Shown: positions 2,501-60,334 of the stretch, in pieces | How the letters are laid out: each line of letters starts with the position of its first letter | Position numbering within the stretch: the first letter of the stretch is position 1 | NCBI GenBank assembly: GCA_951406725.2 | Contig: OX597815.1 | Location: 97,402,001-97,466,000, forward strand | Source of the DNA: Octopus vulgaris | Taxonomy: Eukaryota | Length of the DNA: 64,000 bases | Direction: 5' to 3' | Program-made: the position numbers and the translations under genes | The notes under the pieces: model-generated | Seen by the model: only the letters and a program-made list of their open reading frames with translations | Database searches by the model: none | Told to the model about the DNA's origin: nothing

Positions 2501-3714
2501 ATACACACACAAACACACGCACACACACGCTATAGTTGCAGTTTACAATATATCTTCTACCATTTTGTGTAACTATAAGTGGAAAGAATAGCGATGCTTC
2601 AAGCTGCCATTTCCTGGATAAAACTTTATCACCAAATTGCATTGTTTGTTTTTAAAAGGTTACTCATTTACTAACGAACGAGTTTGTTTAATGTCTTCGT
2701 ACAAAATACTCGCGTGTACTCGAACACACATTCATTTGTACATACACATGCACAATATACATGTATATACATACGTGCATACATACTAGCACACACATTA
2801 ACACTCACAAACAACGTCTGTCATGTATGTGTAAGTGTGTGTGTGCGTGTGTGTGAGTGTGTGTGTGTGTGTGTTTGCATGAGTGTGAACTAATGCAGCT
2901 GTCTATTTATGGCATTTTCAATAGAATTCTTTCATGTGATTATATGTATCAATACGTGAGGAAAAAAAGAAAAGGCAGAAAACAGAGCTTGAAATGGGAT
3001 CAGATCAATGTTGATTGTGGTTGATCACTTGGCTTTGTAGCAATTATTATGAAGTTTGCATTGTTCTGTGTAAATTTCTGAATATAAGCGTAGAAATGTC
3101 TTGCGTCATCCCACTGCTGAAATATCATGCGTACGAATACGTAGGTCTCCATTAAATAACGTTTTATAAACATATGCAAACTCGTGCCTGTATCCATCAT
3201 TTCAAAGATAGTATCACACTTGTATAGATTGTCTCTTACGAAGCGAAGCTGGAATTGTAACCCCTACGGGTGTTTAATTCATTCAATACTTGATTCATTA
3301 TTTCACACCATTGAACACTTAATTCTTAAAGAAAACCGGTAAGAACCGTATCGACTCTTAAGGCTAATGAAAATTATTAAGCATACACGAATGAGTATTG
3401 CAAATGTAGCTAAATAAGCAATGATAGGGTGAAACGAAATGTAATCTAATTTGAAATTCTACCCTTATAATACGTTTCTCGTAGCAGTGATCTGTAACAT
3501 TTCATTCAAATGTTATCATTTAGAAGGGACAGTAGCAAGACACAAACCAGGAAATAAAGCAGTGGTGATATCACACAGTGTACCTATAGTATGAAACGTA
3601 TATTACATAAAGCCTACTTGTAGTATAAAACATAGAGATGGTGAATAATACATTAGAATAATACACTTCACTGCAAAATAGAGTTACTGTATTTATATAC
3701 TTTCTATTGTAAAA

Positions 3715-3913
3715 GAGGCGAGCTAGCATAATCGCTAGTACGCCAGGCGAAATGCATAGCAGCATTTCGCCCGTCGTTATCCTCTGAGTTCAAATTCCGC
3801 CGAGGTCGATTTTGCCATTCGGAGTCGATAAAATGAGTACTAGTTGGCAACTGGGGTGGTTGTAATGGATGTAGCTCCTCCCCTAGAATTGCTGTCATTG
3901 TGCCAAACTTTGG
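3715..3913 (+). mobile_element. tRNA-derived SINE (same family as the 18.3-kb array)
   Basis: ggcgagctagcataatcgctag...gagttcaaattccgccgaggtcga...gtcgataaaatgagtac...gtgccaaactt. Confidence 0.85.
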
Positions 3914-4515
3914 GAACAATACTTTCTTACATAAATTAACTACGGTCGTCACGTTCAATCTATTTTTACTGGGCGTCGTAAAGATATTTTCACTAAACAT
4001 TATATGCCTATGCAAGTGCGAGTAAACCAACACTTTCTCTGCCTTTCCATTATTAACCAATCAGAATATCAAGGTTGTGACAGATCACTGGATAACGTGA
4101 TACACCAACACGCAGCTGGTACTTTATTCATCGATCTTTAAATGTTAGCTTTATTAACTTCAATCCCTGCTCAGTAGGAATTCACTTCATAGCGCAATGT
4201 GACGGAGCAAATATCTTGACGTATTTTATAAGTTATGTAATGAAGTGGTCCTTTTGAACTCATTAGTACAATGTATAGTGAATATGTTGCAATATTTGTG
4301 CTTGCTCTTTGTGTTGTGAATTCAAATAGCACAAAGATCAATTTTCCTTTTCATCTGTCATCTATGCTGGTGCATCCCTCAATCACCCAGTGTTTCGCAT
4401 CCGGTTTGAAAAATATGTCGTGTGCAAATGTCAAGATTATGTTCATCTACTGCGCAATGAATCGGTATAAATAACATTAAGCGAAAACACTTTATGTTCG
4501 ACGAACACACACACT

Positions 4516-5846: not shown

Positions 5847-7027
5847 TTGGATTGTCCTGAAAGTTCATGCCGATTTATAGTGACTTACCTTTCGCCTTTT
5901 TTTAGAACATGGTTGAGTTCATAAGCTAGGATTTGACTACACCTCCATTTAGATCACAGTTTAAGATATCTTTTCGTGGAAGAAGGTTTATGTTCCTATA
6001 AACTGTGCTAATTATGTAACCCTTTAAATTCGAAGATAAGAATATTCATTTTCGGCACTTGATGCTTTTCTTTTTCAGTAAAGGGGAAAATGCCTCACAA
6101 GCAACCAAAGAAATTGTAGCCTTATTGATAAAGAGCGATCAAGCAGACCATCTTTTACAGATAATAATGAAATCAAGTCATTAATTGAGAATAACCCACA
6201 TTGCACGACCCGAGAAATGGTAGAAAGCCTCAACCTATCAAAATCTGTCGTTCATGAGCACCTGGTAAAGATTGGGTACGCAAATCGCTACGATGTTTGC
6301 TTACCACATGAGTTGAGTGAGAAGAATGATTTGGATCGCATTTCTATATGTGATTCGCTTTATAAACGAAATGAAAACGCGCCATTTTTAAAGCAAATTG
6401 TGACAGGTGATGAGAAATGGATTATCTCCCGAAATGTTCAGAGAAAGCGATCCTGGAGTAAGCGACATGAGCCACCCTTTGACATCCCAAAAACGGGTCT
6501 TCACCCTAAAAATGTCTTACTTTGTGTCTAGTGGGTTTGGAAAGGAATTCTGTACTATGAGCTTCTCCCAAGTAACTAGACAAAACTGGATGAGTTAAGA
6601 ACAACAATTAAGAGAAGCGTCCAGAATTGGCTAACAGGAAGGTTATTGTTTTTCAATATGATAATGCAATACCGTACGTTTCTTTGGGAACCAGACAAAA
6701 ATTGCTGCAGCTCGGCCGGGATGTGTTACCCTACACTCTATATTTACCAGATATTGCTCCTTCGGATTTCCACTTATTCAGGTCTCTGAAGAATAGTCTT
6801 AATGGTAAAAATTTCAATTCCTTGGATGACGTAAAAAGATACATTGATGAATTATTTGCCACGAAAACCTCAATTCTGGGAAGAGGATATTTTCAAGTTA
6901 AAGGAAAGACGGAGACGCATTGTGCAACAAAATGGTTCATATTCGATTGATTAAAAATGTGATGGCAATTGTTTATTGACCTTTTTCTTTCCTTTAAAAC
7001 TCGGCACGAACTTTCCGGACAACCCAA
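5847..7027 (+). mobile_element. Decayed mariner (Tc1/mariner) DNA transposon
   Basis: TA-flanked imperfect TIRs: ttggattgtcctgaaagttcatgccga and tcggcacgaactttccggacaacccaa. Transposase fragments carry CLPHEL (WVPHEL-like), IVTGDEKWI, HPK, QYDNA.PY and LYLPDIAPSDFHLF (YSPDLAPSD-like), interrupted by stops and frameshifts. Confidence 0.95.
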
Positions 7028-8853: not shown

Positions 8854-8898
8854 CACACGGACCCGAGTTTCAAGGTGTTTACCTTTCATCAGCGTGTG
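8854..8898 (-). ncRNA. Minimal type I hammerhead ribozyme, canonical core
   Basis: Minus strand reads CACACG CTGATGA AAGGT-AAAC-ACCTT GAAA C-TCGG-GTC^CGTGTG: perfect 6-bp stem I, 5-bp stem II, short quasi-palindromic stem III and a GUC cleavage triplet. Confidence 0.88.
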
Positions 8899-9228: not shown

Positions 9229-9273
9229 CACACGCTGATGAAAGGTAAACACCTTGAAACTCGGGGCCGTGTG
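9229..9273 (+). ncRNA. Type I hammerhead ribozyme copy with mutated cleavage triplet (GGC)
   Basis: CACACG CTGATGA AAGGTAAACACCTT GAAA CTCGG GGC CGTGTG. Identical to the 8854-8898 copy except GTC>GGC, so probably inactive. Confidence 0.8.
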
Positions 9274-18326: not shown

Positions 18327-19268
18327 TTGGCGAGCTGGCAAAATTGTTAGCACGCCGGGCGAAATGCTTAGGGGTATTTCGTCTGCCGCTACGTTCTGAG
18401 TTCAAATTCCGCCGAGGTCGACTTTGCCTTTCATCCTTTCGGGGTCGATTAAATAGGTACCAGTTATGCACTGGGGTCGATATAATCGACTTAATCCGTT
18501 TGTCTGTCCTTGTTTGTTCCCTTTGTGTTTGGTCCCTTGTGGGTAGTAAAGAAATAGGTATTTCGTCTCTCTGTAAGTTCTGAGCATAAACTCCGCCGAG
18601 GTCGACTTTGCATTTTATCCTTTCGAGTCGATTAAATAAGTACCAGTTAGGCACTGGGGTCGATCTAATCGAGTTAATCCGTTTGTCTGTCCTCGTTTGT
18701 CCTCTGTGTTTAGCCCCTTGTGGGTAGTAAAGAAATATAAATAGGCATTTCGTCTGCCGCTACGTTCTGAGTTCAAATTCCGCCGAGGTCGACTTTGCCT
18801 TTCATCATTTCGGGGTCGATAAATTAAGTACCAGTTACGCACTGGGGTCGATGTAATCGACTTAATCCGTTTGTCTGTCCTTGTTTGTCCCCTTTGTGTT
18901 TGGTCCCTTGTGGGTAGTAAAGAAATAGGTATTTCGTCTCTCTGTACGTTCTGAGTACAAATTCCGCCGAGGTCGACTTTGCCTTTCATCCTTTCGGGTC
19001 GATTAGATAAGTACCAGTTACGCACTGGGGTCGATGTAATCGAGTTAATCCATTTGTCTGTCCTTGCATGTCCTCTCTGTGTTTAGCCCCTTGTGGGTAG
19101 TAAAGAAATAGGTATTTCATCTACTCTTCATTCTTAGCAAATTCCGCCGTGGTCGACTTTGCCTTTCATCATTTCGGGGTCAATTAAATAAGTACCAGTT
19201 ACGCACTGGGGTTGTTGTAATCAACTTAATCCCTTTGTCATTGTTTGTCCCCTCTATGTTTAGCCCTC
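18327..19268 (+). repeat. SINE-derived tandem array (one tRNA-like head + five ~180-188 bp units)
   Basis: ccgccg(a/t)ggtcgactttgc recurs at about 18409, 18593, 18780, 18964 and 19144. The head ggcgagctggcaaaattgttagc occurs only once. Confidence 0.92.
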
Positions 19269-19456
19269 TAAACATAGAAATAAAATGTGTTTAGGTGCAA
19301 ATAAACTTTACGGTTGTGGCTTATTTCAACTCGTAAAGGCAAATTTACTGCAATTTCACCTTTTACCATCAAAGAGAATCTTTCTCCACGGTAACTGCAG
19401 TGGCTTTGGAAGTTGAAATATGTCAAAAGTATTTGAACTAAACTAAAGGTCGCTGA

Positions 19457-20584
19457 TATATATAAGTTGTTAACTCTATATCCGGTCATACAGAGGCCAG
19501 TGGTTTCGCATCCACAAAGGGTTTAGTTCAGTGGACATCTTTCAAACTCTAAAGCAAGAGACAAATGTAACTCTTCACCTCTGGGAGGCAAGAATCCGTT
19601 ACAGTCATTTGGTCAGTAAGTCACAAAAGACTGAATATTCCGGGGTTAATGAGGACGGGTTGTGCCCTTAGACTAGTTTGTGGAGGTGGGGCTAAAACAG
19701 TGGCAACATGCGATGTTTCCCTTGGGGTATTTTTAGATCGTCAGGACCTATTTGCAGCAGGTAGCGCTTGAAATAGATGCAAAGACTATAAATTTCCTGA
19801 TGAGTGTTCAGTGATCCAGGTTTCAGAGAATCTTTGAGCATCCTTGCTCGCTCAGCTATACAGAGCTTGCAGTGTTCGCTCCTATTAATGAAGGCTCCCG
19901 GTGGTTGTAAGATCCTCCACTTGATATCTTATACAATATCTTCATCTTTGAAGCACCACACGTGACAGGGCAGGGTTGTGACGAATTGTCTTTCCAGAAT
20001 CCTTGAAGTGAGAGGGCCTGTATTTGTACAGGCGTCGTTTGATTGTCGTCCCGGCTGACCCGAACTATTTCTAGGCTTGGGTATTGGTTGTGCACACATC
20101 ACTGGCGCATCTTCGCTTGGCTCTTGGACCGAAGATCTTGTTGTTTCCGCCGGTGTTATTGGAGCTACAATCGATGCTTTTATCATTACGAAACGTAGGT
20201 CCGGCGATATCACTGCGGCTGTCATCATTGTGATGGTCATCCCTGGCCGTGATGTTGACGCTATAGTCTTCACATTTCAAACGCTACCTGCTGCAAGCAT
20301 AGGATTCCCCTTACTCCAATTAGACCCGGAACGGTCCTCACGATCTAAAACAAGCTGAAGCGGAGAATCCTTTGCTCCACTTCTTTTTCTCCTCAAAAAT
20401 TGGTCTAAGGGACTATTTACTTTTTGGTGACTTAATAAGAAAATGGCCATAAGGTATCCCTACCTCCCAGAGGTAGGAATCCCATTTTGGAGTTTGACAA
20501 GACGACCACGGGTTTAAACCCTTTGTGGATGCGAAATCATCGGTCGCTCATTAACTGGACATAGACTTAATTACTTATATATAT
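19457..20584. repeat. ~1.1-kb imperfect inverted-repeat (rod-like) element flanked by short TA runs
   Basis: Ordered complementary blocks: tttcgcatccacaaagggttta, tcaaactc, acctctgggagg, taagtcac, cccttagac, ttttagatcgt.aggacc, ttgcagcaggtagcg.ttgaaat and aagactata. Confidence 0.88.
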
Positions 20585-20957
20585 AAGATATAGGAATCGA
20601 GGGGTAGGAAGAAAGTTATCTTCAAACAATGCATAGTAAATATGAAAAACAACTTTCCGGGACAAAATAGTGTTTTATTAAAACGGATGGTTGTGGAATT
20701 TTTTTGTATCTAAATGCAATAAACTGAAAAAAGTTTTTTTTATATTTCACGGTAGATGATCAGAGTCGCCGCGTGTGCGAATTAGAATACAAGAGTTAAG
20801 GAATGGAGTAGATAAGATCTGAGCTACAGATGTTTCATAGCGAGCGAAAACTCACTTGAATATTTACTACTTCTGTGGTTCTAAATACATATGTATGTAT
20901 GTATGTATGTATGCATTTATTTATGCATGTATGTATGTATTCACTTATGAATTGATT

Positions 20958-31388: not shown

Positions 31389-31556
31389 GATATACGCTAC
31401 GATGAGCTAAAAGAATTTACGCACCACGGAGTCAACATATCGTCATTCCGCTTGGTCGATCCTACAAAACCTCAGGTCGTTCGTGTTTTAAGTGACTGGC
31501 GATTGGATCAAAGTCGAAGAGGAAAATCTCCACTAATGGGAGGCACAGAAGTAACG
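31389..31556 (+). CDS. Internal exon of a kainate-like ionotropic glutamate receptor, amino-terminal (LIVBP-like) domain
   Basis: Acceptor ttttccAG (31387-31388) and donor ACG|GTgggt (31557), phase 0/0. Translation DIRYDELKEFTHHGVNISSFRLVDPTKPQVVRVLSDWRLDQSRRGKSPLMGGTEVT resembles the GluK segment 'DL..LD.EPYRYSGVNMTGFRILN......IEKW' (recalled, not searched). It joins in frame to the 57655 exon. Confidence 0.88.
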
Positions 31557-52402: not shown

Positions 52403-53392
52403 TTGAGATATCTCGATGACTGCTTCATCTTTTGGAACCGATCAGAAGAAGATCTATAATCATTCCACAACATCCTCAACATACTGCACCCGTCTATCAA
52501 CTTCACGATAGATATCAGCCACAACGAACTTCCCTTCCTAGACATCAACACCAAGATACACAACTCCATCGTCACAACAGACATCTACTACAAAAAAACT
52601 GACACGCACCAATATTTAAATTTCTACGCCTGCCACCCATCCCACATAAAAAGAAACATCCCATATAGTATGGCAAGACGCATATGCAGCATAGTAACCG
52701 ACTCACAAACACGCCAAATAAGAATAAATGAACTTAAAATCTTCCTACTAGAACAAAAATACCCACTCAAATAAATAAGAAATGGAATCTCAAGAGCAAT
52801 GAAACTGGACATCACCCAACTCAGAACTCCAAAAACGAAAAACAAAGAAAGCATCATCCCTGGAATTACCAACATGTTTCAAATCATACATTCAAACTCA
52901 TCAATAGTCCTACAAAGCCCCGAAATAGAAAACATATTAAACAAATATTGCATAAAAAACAGTAAACGCCAAGACAAAAACTTCTTTGTAAAAGAGTGTG
53001 GAGATGGTAGATGTGGGATCTGCAGTAACCCCACCTACAAATATCTAGAGGTAGACAAACAAATAAAATTTAAGACTGGTCACATATTCAAAGTAAATGT
53101 AGACATGAACTGCAAGACGCAGGACGTAATATACTGCATAACCTGCCCCACATCCAAGGAGTATTATATACGCGAAAGTGGAAATTCTTTATGCCAACGA
53201 GCCAGAATTCACTGACAACATGTCCGACAGGAGGAACTGCGAAATATCCCACTGAGTAAATACTTAGATACATGTGGAGAAAGAAAATTTAAGATCTTTT
53301 CCTTCTATAAATGCCCAAGGAATGACACCTCCTTCAGGAAAAATATTCACAAATACATCATAACAAAGTTCTCCCACAAACTGAATGGCTGA
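52403..53392 (+). mobile_element. 5'-truncated Penelope-like retroelement relic (RT C-terminal part + GIY-YIG endonuclease), Neptune-like
   Basis: One frame with a few stops: LRYLDDCFIFW, HPSINFT, LPFLDI, TDIYYKKTDTHQYL, CHPSHIKRNIPYS, a Cys linker (CGDGRCGIC), then VIYCITC..KEYYIRES..L.QR..H and a terminal KLNG*. The Cys linker between RT and EN is typical of the Neptune group. Confidence 0.92.
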
Positions 53393-57654: not shown

Positions 57655-57807
57655 ACAGAAACCGCGTTGATGTACGATGCTGTCCTCCTGTTTGCCGCAG
57701 CGCTACAGGAATTAGCTAAAGCTCAAGATGTGGATACCAGTGAACTGAACTGCGCCCATTCAAATACATGGAAGTATGGCACAAGTCTTATAAACTATAT
57801 GAGGAGG
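57655..57807 (+). CDS. Next internal exon of the kainate-like ionotropic glutamate receptor (ATD)
   Basis: Acceptor tttgttttAG (57653-57654) and donor AGG|GTaatt (57808), phase 0/0. Translation TETALMYDAVLLFAAALQELAKAQDVDTSELNCAHSNTWKYGTSLINYMRR matches the iGluR ATD motif T.AALMYDAV...L.C....PW..G..(L/F). Confidence 0.92.
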
Positions 57808-60334
57808 GTAATTATTACATTTTTATGTATTTGTTTTACATTTTTATCACATTTTTATTACATTTTTATGCATTTCCATCTATTTCATTTAATACTGGTA
57901 AAGGCGTCTTGTGCGAATAATGTTTCAAAAATTTCATATATGTATTTCAAATTTAAGTGTAGTTTTAATTTAGTTACTCTACAATCTCAAAAACCTTTCA
58001 CTATGGCAAATGAACATTTAAACATTCTCCAATAAGCACAATATTACATATGATTCTTGTTGTTCCTTTTGTTACGCGATTTGGGATAATTCGTTTGTTA
58101 TTTGGCTAGGCACCCATAGAACCCGTTCTAAATTTCTTTGTATTCTAGTAAAGTTTTAATGCAATATTTACGTGAAATAATATGCCGTCTTCTTCGTTGG
58201 TTTTAACATCAACGAGAAAGATAACTCCAATCATATTGAATAGACATCTACCATTTAAATGTTGATCATCTACAGCTGAATATATTCCTCAGCATTATAA
58301 TTGACATTGGTATGTGAGCAGGAATGTATGGTTCCTATAACAGCATCTCAACAGGGGCTCCATAGTTTTTGAATTTTTTCTGCTATACTTGATATAACTA
58401 GAGAAGCTACCTCTCCATTTGTTGAGTGACAACTTCGAACTGTCAAAACCTGTTCGCGGTGAATTAAGGTATTTCTAAGTTACTCAGCTTCCAATCCCAC
58501 CACTTGGTAGATGTTCCCTTTGTAGCATTTCCTGTCTCGAAATAAAAACTTTGATGCTTTCTCCTTCCCTTAAAGTATATATTTCATTTCTTTTGGTGCT
58601 GGTGCCTGTCTCAAACTGAATGACACATTTTCAGATAATTTTTCCATAACTGTAGTTCAGTATCACATATATTTGCTCATGCTAACATACAATATCCGAT
58701 ATAAGAAGATATTTTATGAAAATTGTATAATGCGCAGTGATATATAAGTACAAGCTTGGTTCTGTCAACGACTGTTTTCTTTAATCTAATTTAAAGTTAA
58801 GTTGTTGGTCATAATGACATGAAATATTGCATTACTCCCATTTTATCAGGTTTTTCAAAATAAAAATCAATATATTGAAGATTGATAGCGTCGTATACAA
58901 CTTTAATACTGGATATATTGTTGCGCTACAAGTGTGTAGATGCTGAATGAATTTATTCATGTGTATATTAAACAGGGAGAGCAATTTGAATGATGGTTTC
59001 TGGGAATCGGTTTTGTGATCGACTGTACACATCAACGAAGAGAGAAGACTAATTTCTTCTCAATGAAATGATGTGTTCAGTTGAACAAAGGTGAAATGAT
59101 CGAAACTGAGATTCGCAAAAATATGGTCAGTTTGGCTTCCACCCGAAAAACATACACAGTGACATATATATATTCAGCCACAAACACATGCATGTTCTTA
59201 ACTACAACCATCGATGTGCGTATTTATATCAGTAGGCATCTATCTATCAATCTATACATAATACATACACACATATATATACATATATATATATCACTAT
59301 GCATATATATGTATAATGTTTTATCCTGATGTAAGTAATACGGCGATGGATACTGACGTTTTATTATACCATATAAACTTTCTTTTGAAGGTGTCAGTGC
59401 GATCTTAATCTTCCCAAATCTGTTTCCTGGTATATGCTGATTACTTCTTTATTCTAGATTTTTGCTGGAACTGTTGAATGTACGGGCATTTTTTTCTAAT
59501 TCTATTCATCCGCCACATTCCTCTATAACATGTTGAATTGTATGTTTCTTACAATTTACAGTAATCATTCCAACGTAAAGAGATATAGAAAGAGTGCCGC
59601 GAACTTTCCTTCTCTAGCTACCTTAATTTACTATCTAACCACCTCCAGAACTTTCTGTATAGTTTTGTTATAATATATATTTTAAAAAGAAGTGCCATAC
59701 TTTCGACAAGTACAACAATATCGAATGCAGCAAGAGGGCTCTTTTATACAGCTTTGCAAAACACATGCAAAAGTTATATAGGTGAAGTCATTGTTGTGTG
59801 TCTAAAAAGATAATGTTATTACAGCTTTCAGATTCAGTGCCAAAGACTTGCACCGTAACTAAATGCTTTGAACCATAGATTTGAGCCGGTAAATATCTGA
59901 TGAGAGAATTTGGTGGACAGAAACGGCGGGGAAGCCCATCACATCTGTCTCTCTTTCTCTCTCTTTCCTATCTCTACATCCCTCTCTCTCTCTCTCTAGA
60001 TATATGTATGTATATGTGTGTGTATTTGCATGCGCCTGTGTGTATATATATATATGCATATGTGCGTGTGTATCTTTCAGCTTAGTGTTTCATACATAAA
60101 CATTTTACTTCCGTAAACGCCAATAAATCATGCTTCACAGAAACATGAAAATACGCTTTAGCCTTTCATCAGTTGTCGTTTGGGATCAAGATCCCGAACG
60201 AACTAGTGCATTTTTCTTAATTTAAAAAAAGTTTAAGTTATGCAGTCCTACACTAAATGCTAAAAGAAATACATAGTCCAGAGAGCATACTTCGTGATCT
60301 TTCCTACATTTTAAGTTGTAATTCTCTCTGTGTG

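What the first reader, a model, noticed from the sequence alone, without database searches (positions are those of the whole stretch)
19457..20584. ~1.1-kb rod-folding element with strongly diverged arms and HHR-like motifs on opposite strands
Seen: complementarity extends at least 340 nt from each end, as perfect blocks interrupted by mismatches and one-sided insertions, with weaker pairing further in (gctcc/ggagc, aagatc/gatctt). It is more GC-rich than its flanks. Near each outer end is a degenerate hammerhead-like motif: on +, GAGT TTGACAA ..CCAC...GTGG.. GAAA TCATCGGTC GCTC, with a counterpart on -. An internal CTGATGAG (19797) and CGAAACGTAGGTC (20189) face each other across the rod. Short ORFs (114 aa at 19929-20273) are unrecognised. 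Inference: either an old PLE-type inverted duplication, or an element that propagates as a whole rod with ribozymes in both polarities, reminiscent of viroid-like circular RNAs.
Basis: partly seen in the sequence, partly recalled or inferred. Interest (0 to 1): 0.75.

Follow-up and report, generated by a model that had tools for sequence, protein, structure and literature searches.

The report
Decayed Penelope retrotransposon with inverted end
The 1.1-kb hairpin is real, but it is an old, truncated copy of a protein-coding jumping gene (Penelope-like, Hydra group) with a second copy of its tail end joined head to head, a known insertion layout, and it is likely a dead fossil rather than a viroid-like RNA that copies itself.

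Summary
The rod is real: the arms at 19457-19790 and 20262-20584 are 73% identical over 280 aligned columns, GC is 45% against 29-34% in the flanks, and each arm has a hammerhead motif. It is not a replicating unit. The minus strand 19457-20268 is the 3' end of a dispersed Penelope-like retrotransposon. Its middle encodes the C-terminal half of a GIY-YIG endonuclease (E 1.5e-11), and longer copies run into a reverse transcriptase. It carries Hydra-clade motifs (DKT, CxCX5C, CxxC/CxH, TA target). The right arm is a second, shorter 3'-end copy joined head to head through a 7-nt overlap. 11 of 69 other loci examined have head-to-head joins, each at its own breakpoint, and none repeats this rod. 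Arm-to-arm divergence (K2P 0.33) is close to the sum of each arm's distance to the family majority (0.16 + 0.22) and lies within the copy-to-copy range. The inner 470 nt folds no better than shuffles. The two 'internal ribozyme' words are private mutations of this copy. The left hammerhead core is broken. The right one reads as the U3-A8 variant but is broken in another haplotype. Verdict: a known layout, in a family not found in the one Hydra catalogue I checked.

The parts
19457..20268 (-). 5'-truncated copy (last ~810 nt) of a Hydra-clade Penelope-like retrotransposon: end of ORF, 3' UTR, hammerhead, ending in (TA)n
   Evidence: Matches 39 other genomic places at 68-77% over query 17-830. 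84% identical to the family majority. Longer copies run into RT.
19752..19982 (-). C-terminal half of the GIY-YIG endonuclease, with CxxC...E...N...CxH motifs and one in-frame stop
   Evidence: Six-frame hmmsearch with a profile of 32 related proteins: i-E 1.5e-11. tblastn E 1e-5 to 4e-5 to P0009, P0010 and P0017. P0017 passes Pfam GIY-YIG.
19983..20268 (-). Decayed YIG motif (about 20062-20073, with stops and a frameshift after it) and the 3' part of a ~140-residue Ser/Asn/Thr/Asp-rich in-frame insert between the GIY and YIG motifs
   Evidence: Frame translations, majority translation, composition
19490..19550 (-). Type I minimal hammerhead of the left arm; core broken (one base lost in the CUGANGA box, U16.1 changed to C)
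   Evidence: Alignment of 39 rows
20262..20584 (+). Inverted second copy (last ~320 nt of the element: last codons, 3' UTR, hammerhead), i.e. an inverted pseudo-LTR
   Evidence: 81% identical to the family majority over columns 1103-1456. Best other copy 71%.
20262..20268 (.). Head-to-head junction: a 7-nt overlap that reads as either copy; 6 of 7 bases also match between the two majority segments
   Evidence: Local alignments of both sides to the majority
20489..20550 (+). Type I minimal hammerhead of the right arm. Reads as the U3-A8 core variant with weakened stems; G5 (20496) is changed in another haplotype.
   Evidence: polymorphism
19457..19464 (.). (TA)n at the left end, the likely target
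   Evidence: Sequence. Most of the 46 family ends listed run into TA-type repeats.
20577..20586 (.). (TA)n at the right end, the likely target
   Evidence: Sequence

Best explanation
This is a 5'-truncated copy of a Penelope-like retrotransposon with Hydra-clade motifs, joined head to head to a shorter copy of its own 3' end between TA repeats, likely written in one reverse-transcription event and likely decaying neutrally since. Shown: the coding remnant, the dispersed family, the two inverted 3' ends, the 7-nt junction overlap, the TA ends and the divergence values. Inferred: the element's own RT and endonuclease cut a (TA)n site and made two cDNAs from the RNA 3' end. One stopped after ~810 nt and the other after ~320 nt, and their 5' ends were joined through the short overlap. 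Each cDNA carries the 3' UTR, so each carries the hammerhead, which explains ribozymes on opposite strands facing outward. The arms were likely identical or nearly so at insertion; their mismatches and deletions are later mutations.
For: (1) Copies share a fixed 3' end and vary in 5' extent. (2) The window's middle matches the C-terminal GIY-YIG of ~700-aa RT+EN proteins at E 1.5e-11, and copy L094 covers RT from the DKT motif onward. (3) 12 of 70 loci with a family hit, including this one, show head-to-head joins, each at a different breakpoint; 8 of the 12 duplicate the 3' end outward. (4) A shared extension of about 50 nt lies beyond the 3' end in 16 of 46 ends by eye, and at one end only in L006, L015, L042, L047 and L053. 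This is the PLE 'tail' of PMC8557442 Fig. 2 legend. (5) K2P without CpG: left-majority 0.161, right-majority 0.224, left-right 0.330; 47 other rows average 0.139. CpG columns changed at 31% against 12.5% elsewhere. (6) Mismatches show no strand bias: 22 G-U on +, 17 G-U on -, 37 other. (7) The majority hammerhead has the published PLE minimal form: 5-bp helix I, 8-bp helix II with an unpaired base, and a palindromic helix III (PMC4209133, which also reports opposite-strand pairs 100-700 bp apart). (8) DNA contigs of other samples carry the locus joined to its flank at flat depth. Of 6 listed arm substitutions, 3 break a pair, 2 weaken one, 1 is the majority base, and none has a listed partner change.
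Against: 4 of the 5 derived changes shared by the arms fall inside the hammerhead. Only 18 of 662 unrelated pairs share 4 or more there (noticed after the fact). All four changes are also common among other copies (6-15 of about 37). Non-CpG core positions changed less (25 of 325, 7.7%) than the UTR (12.5%) across copies; this may reflect selection on parent lineages or bias in how loci were picked. The window body has fewer second-position changes (7 of 110, against 16 of 104 and 18 of 110). The tree does not resolve the two arms as sisters (p-AU 0.41, neither shown nor rejected), so a single template is not shown for this locus, whereas it is for L006 (96/92). Neither end of this copy has a clear tail or a resolvable target-site duplication. 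Pfam did not recognise the decayed pieces directly.
Confidence: 0.95

Rival explanations
1. The rod is an autonomous or parasitic unit, like a viroid, a deltavirus or an obelisk, that replicates as a circular RNA with hammerheads in both polarities and was integrated whole.
For: Length of about 1.1 kb, rod fold on both strands, hammerheads on opposite strands.
Against: No second copy of the rod: 40 of 483 candidates scored, best 68-77% and ending at query 830; right arm best 71%. The middle is PLE endonuclease sequence. Inner pairing is at chance level. The left core is broken. No wobble bias. Other inverted loci have other junctions.
Confidence: 0.01
2. The two arms come from two separate events: a second copy of the family inserted later at the 5' end of the first, or two different template RNAs were used in one event.
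For: The arms differ in distance to the majority (0.16 against 0.22), are not resolved as sisters, and share no overall excess of derived changes.
Against: The join is exact, with a 7-nt overlap and no TA repeat between the arms, although this family's 3' ends sit in TA repeats. The same geometry recurs at 11 of 69 other loci. A star-like family gives little signal to unite two arms, and one clade is not rejected (p-AU 0.41).
Confidence: 0.12
3. The origin is as in the best explanation, but the host has since co-opted the hairpin or the right-arm U3-A8 hammerhead as a regulatory RNA element in the intron of a glutamate-receptor gene.
For: The element likely lies in an intron of a kainate-type receptor gene transcribed on +: exons for residues 267-322 and 323-374 lie downstream, and none for residues 1-266 is in the window. 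The right-arm core fits the U3-A8 variant reported in PMC4209133.
Against: G5 is changed in the haplotype of runs X3 and X4 (one study), with the partner base unchanged. C3U and G8A are each frequent decay changes (9 and 8 of 37 rows, both in 1). No exact U3-A8 21-mer exists in the genome, against 6 for the C3-G8 form. The isolated right-arm motif does not fold as a hammerhead in its predicted minimum-energy structure.
Confidence: 0.03
4. A foldback or MITE-type DNA transposon with 330-bp terminal inverted repeats and a TA target.
For: Inverted ends flanked by TA.
Against: Most copies have only one arm, the arm is the 3' UTR of an RT+GIY-YIG gene, and junctions differ between loci.
Confidence: 0.01

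Closest known systems
Hydra clade of C-terminal EN+ Penelope-like elements, closest listed member Hydra-1_Obim (Craig et al. 2021, PMC8557442 section 11 and supplement)
   Same: RT followed by GIY-YIG, DKT motif, CxCX5C linker, CxxC and CxH around the conserved E and N, no CxxC between GIY and YIG, hammerhead with an ACCA-n-TGGT palindromic stem III, (TA)n target. Read by eye, copy L094 and Hydra-1_Obim share an identical run of more than 20 residues in the RT N-terminal part.
   Different: A different family. Three diagnostic words of this family had 0 hits in that supplement. The listed hammerhead has other stems I and II. The GIY-to-YIG spacer is ~140 residues here, about 28 in Hydra-1_Obim (by eye) and 9-16 in the 13 of 33 database relatives where it could be measured. 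All copies I saw are old and broken.
Inverted 5'-truncated pLTR insertions of EN+ PLEs (PMC8557442 Fig. 2 legend; Adineta Pen2 on scaffold 304 and Pen2a, PMC3846280)
   Same: Truncated body with an adjacent inverted truncated copy at its 5' end, head to head, with a short overlap and an optional tail at one end.
   Different: No direct upstream pLTR, no clear tail and no resolvable target-site duplication in this copy.
Minimal hammerheads of metazoan PLEs (Cervera and de la Pena 2014, PMC4209133)
   Same: Helix I of 4-5 bp, helix II of 7-8 bp with an unpaired 5' base, short palindromic helix III; opposite-strand pairs and U3-A8 variants are both reported there.
   Different: Here the pair is ~1 kb apart (100-700 bp in the paper), and one core is broken.
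Viroid-like, deltavirus-like and obelisk rod RNAs (recalled, not tested against any database)
   Same: Size, predicted rod fold and ribozyme motifs in both polarities.
   Different: The pairing comes from a DNA-level duplication of one segment, the middle is unpaired transposon coding sequence, and the unit is not repeated.

Membership tests
EN+ Penelope-like element | Single ORF with PLE-type RT followed by a C-terminal GIY-YIG endonuclease | tested here: met
   Window middle matches the EN C-terminal half (E 1.5e-11). L094, L088 and L093 match RT regions of the same ~700-aa proteins. P0017 passes Pfam GIY-YIG. The majority is one open frame from thumb to EN. No intact full-length copy was found.
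EN+ Penelope-like element | 5' truncation with direct or inverted pseudo-LTRs | tested here: met
   12 of 70 loci head to head; L092 has a partial direct copy upstream
EN+ Penelope-like element | Optional 3' tail at one end | tested here: met
   Met for the family (16 of 46 ends by eye, one end only in five paired loci), not clear in the window copy
EN+ Penelope-like element | Minimal type I hammerhead in the pLTR | tested here: met
   Majority core intact; 5 of 39 rows keep the full core. Cleavage not tested.
Hydra clade | CxCX5C linker | tested here: met
   Majority translation and L007, L094
Hydra clade | DKT in place of DKG | tested here: met
   L094, one copy only
Hydra clade | RWK motif at the N-terminus | tested here: inconclusive
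   Not reached in any genomic copy examined; present in 12 of 33 database relatives
Hydra clade | CCHH motif absent; CxxC and CxH flank the conserved E and N | tested here: met
Hydra clade | Insertion into (TA)n | tested here: met
Hydra clade | Placement in the RT phylogeny with reference clades | not tested
   Reference sequences were seen only as paper text; compared by eye
Viroid-like circular RNA | The whole rod is the repeated unit, copies closer to each other than arm to arm | tested here: not met
Viroid-like circular RNA | Pairing along the whole length kept by covariation | tested here: not met
   Inner z -0.43 and -0.45; shared derived changes at background; no compensated polymorphism listed
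Viroid-like circular RNA | Intact ribozymes in both polarities | tested here: not met
   Left core broken
Viroid-like circular RNA | Circular, both-strand RNA in cells | not testable with these tools
   Only assembled contigs were served, none on record as RNA
Non-LTR retrozyme | Non-coding 150-450 nt unit in head-to-tail tandem (definition partly recalled; abstract) | tested here: not met
   Coding remnant and no tandem array here

The most novel reading that the evidence does not exclude
The right arm has drifted into a working U3-A8 hammerhead on the sense strand of a glutamate-receptor intron and cuts the pre-mRNA before the left arm can trap it or when it is released, with a natural G5 null allele in other individuals. 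That would be a polymorphic, transposon-born ribozyme switch in an octopus neural gene.
Probability: 0.03. Interest if true: 0.6.

Novelty: new member of a known kind. Interest (0 to 1): 0.12.

Why it matters
As it stands, little. It is one aged copy of a common kind of retrotransposon in its textbook layout. Two modest points have value. First, it shows how PLE inverted ends mimic viroid-like rods with ribozymes in both polarities, a false positive that screens for such RNAs in animal genomes should filter. Second, the family is a Hydra-clade PLE distinct from the one octopus member listed in PMC8557442, with a ~140-residue low-complexity insert inside its GIY-YIG motif. Asn-rich in-frame inserts are known from rotifer PLEs at other positions (PMC3846280).

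Tried and rejected
Rfam scan of the window at gathering thresholds: 0 hits. Pfam on four window pieces and four L007 pieces: no relevant family. Pfam on six relatives: GIY-YIG in 1 of 6; the precomputed accessions PF26215 and PF28514 listed were not returned, so I could not name them. Protein search with the L007 linker piece: 0 of 43 candidates. ESM Atlas: no usable hit. tblastn with the window's other PLE remnant (52460-53215) against the first 30 loci: no hit below E 1, so it is another family. The first profile included the window's own right arm and was rebuilt without the window. Eleven duplicate or near-duplicate loci were dropped before (49 of 60 kept). For one search, 21 of loci L062-L095 were used, leaving out those already covered. 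Loci were picked by similarity and most have 1.5-kb flanks, so 12 of 70 is not a genome-wide rate. Two inner words (aagatc, gatctt) were looked up at slightly shifted coordinates; I do not use those two rows. RNA: no RNA holder listed. Runs guessed to be RNA gave only short low-depth contigs (X1 20204-20426; X2 19371-19524 and 19980-20152) or nothing on the element (X6-X8), and no go-back joint among the joints shown; this is no evidence either way on expression or circularity. A U3-A8 subfamily was sought with one exact 21-mer and not found; this is a weak test. Arm tree: star-like, unresolved for the window pair. Look-ups of earlier findings near this place and by sequence returned nothing. 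Three literature searches and one supplement did not show this family. Repbase and Dfam were not available, so 'undescribed' is not established. R-scape was not available.

Full report
Observation. The inverted arms are in the sequence and both strands fold as a rod. The element is 44.7% GC against 28.5-34.2% in three flank stretches. The paired part is only the outer ~330 nt. The inner 469 nt (19792-20260) folds no better than its shuffles (z -0.43 and -0.45). Rfam found nothing at gathering score in the window.

Copies. The window lies in a 2.8-Gb genome; a downstream exon is 100% identical to a kainate-type glutamate receptor named from Octopus sinensis. A search with the whole rod scored 40 of 483 candidates. 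The 39 places other than the window match at 68-77%, only over query 17-830; the right arm matches the same places on the other strand. With the right arm as query the best other copy is 71%. Copies share a fixed end at the left and extend to different lengths on the right, the pattern of a 5'-truncated element on the minus strand.

Identity. Longer copies translate on that strand to an RT thumb, a Cys linker and a GIY-YIG domain. The RT piece of L007 finds 33 proteins at E <= 0.001, including ~700-residue RT+EN proteins; one of six scanned passes Pfam GIY-YIG. A profile of 32 of them matches the window's minus strand at 19752-19982 with E 1.5e-11, and copy L094 covers residues ~94-586 and 653-704 of these proteins. 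The column majority of the family is one open frame from thumb to endonuclease end. The motifs given for the Hydra clade in PMC8557442 section 11 are met: DKT, CxCX5C, CxxC and CxH around E and N, no CxxC between GIY and YIG, hammerhead, TA target. RWK was not reached. That paper's supplement lists Hydra-1_Obim, a clear relative by eye but with another hammerhead and a short spacer; three words from this family had no hit in the file.

Architecture. The body runs from 20268 down to 19457 on -. The right arm starts at 20262 on + and covers the last codons, the 3' UTR and the hammerhead. The two overlap by 7 nt. Both outer ends run into TA repeats. Of 70 loci with a family hit, 12 have a head-to-head join, each at its own breakpoint; 8 of these duplicate the 3' end as here. 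A shared extension of about 50 nt follows the 3' end in 16 of 46 ends, by eye, and at one end only in five paired loci; the window copy has no clear tail. This is the layout described for PLEs in PMC8557442 (Fig. 2 legend) and PMC3846280.

Over 280 columns the arms are 72.9% identical. The left arm averages 75.5% and the right arm 71.5% to 30 rows from other loci; unrelated copies average 75.7% (sd 3.8, 699 pairs). The arms share 5 derived changes (1.8%; background 1.6-1.9%). K2P distances without CpG are 0.161 and 0.224 to the majority and 0.330 between arms; 47 other rows average 0.139. Mismatches favour neither strand (22, 17, 37). The three one-sided indels are deletions relative to the majority. 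The internal CTGATGAG and CGAAACGTAGGTC occur in 0 of 40 and 0 of 22 other rows. DNA contigs from two other studies hold the same locus; one contig spans 19595-20817 at flat depth (X3 and X4 are one study). Of 6 listed arm substitutions none has a listed partner change and 3 break a pair; a few differences may be hidden under the depth of other copies.

Hammerheads. The majority motif is a type I minimal hammerhead as in PMC4209133: 5-bp helix I, CUGACGA, 8-bp helix II with an unpaired A, GAAA, palindromic helix III, GUC. 5 of 39 rows keep the full core. The left arm has lost a core base and U16.1. The right arm has C3U and G8A, the U3-A8 variant of that paper, but each change is common decay (9 and 8 of 37 rows), no exact U3-A8 word was found in the genome, and G5 is changed in another haplotype.

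Results against my reading. 4 of the 5 shared changes cluster in the hammerhead (18 of 662 unrelated pairs do as much). Core positions changed less than the UTR across copies. The window body shows fewer second-position changes. The tree neither joins nor separates the two arms (p-AU 0.41), while it joins those of L006. So one event from one template is inferred, not shown.

Mechanism. Likely: endonuclease cut at (TA)n, two cDNAs from the 3' end of the element RNA, both truncated, joined at their 5' ends through the short overlap, then neutral decay. In-vitro work on a Poseidon PLE shows cleavage and extension of both DNA strands, which fits two-ended products, and finds hammerhead cleavage not needed for insertion (PMC11167929 passages). 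PMC3846280 offers self-priming on an antisense template as another route to head-to-head joins. I cannot tell these routes apart here.

Context. The element likely sits in a long intron of the glutamate-receptor gene, since exons for residues 267-322 and 323-374 lie at 31389 and 57655 on + and none for residues 1-266 is in the window. The pre-mRNA would then hold an imperfect 330-bp duplex; nothing here shows a function.

Papers seen: PMC8557442 (passages, section 11 whole, three supplement look-ups); PMC4209133 (part 1 of 4 of the text); PMC11167929 and PMC3846280 (passages); bioRxiv 10.64898/2026.07.22.740005 (abstract and outline only; its supplements were not seen). Comparisons with viroids, deltaviruses and obelisks are recalled. 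Earlier scan notes on other loci of this genome reach the same kind of verdict; they are not independent support.

Verdict. Real hairpin, ordinary origin: a new member of a known kind, interest 0.12.

Noticed in passing
Family-wide; window 20075-20268 (-), L007:2032-2592: A ~140-residue Ser/Asn/Thr/Asp/Gly-rich in-frame insert separates the GIY and YIG motifs, against 9-16 residues in 13 database relatives. The majority frame is open across it.
   Followed up: partly
window 19559-19602: A ~44-nt block upstream of the hammerhead draws far higher contig depth than the rest of the element and is 96% identical in L012. It may be a cis-element shared with younger related families.
   Followed up: no
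L033, L037, L080, L087, L088: Head-to-head joins in which the inverted piece is the upstream, non-overlapping part of the element, resembling twin-priming inversions rather than duplicated ends.
   Followed up: partly
L006:1025-1374 and 1345-2302: The two arms share 22 of 325 derived changes and group together (96/92), the clearest case of both arms from one template or later conversion.
   Followed up: partly
window 18373-19266: Tandem array of ~183-nt units (4.9 copies, alternating 183/188, dimer period 371) 190 nt left of the element. No canonical hammerhead core matched in it. Short related stretches appear near 3704-4060 and 29036 (ORF translations).
   Followed up: partly
window 31389-31556 and 57655-57810 (+): Two exons of a kainate-type ionotropic glutamate receptor gene, 26 kb apart.
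   Followed up: yes
window 52460-53215 (+): Remnant of a second Penelope-like family (RT thumb and a GIY-YIG with CxxC; recognised from recalled motifs), unrelated to this family by tblastn.
   Followed up: partly
window 6082-6950 (+): Mariner-type transposase remnant (Pfam Transposase_1, E 3e-4, below the curated cut-off).
   Followed up: partly
window 8870-8892 (-) and 9235-9260 (+): Another pair of near-identical hammerhead-like cores on opposite strands about 350 nt apart, facing outward; probably another inverted PLE end.
   Followed up: no
window 20770-20850: A very high-copy short repeat just right of the element (contig depth in the thousands).
   Followed up: no
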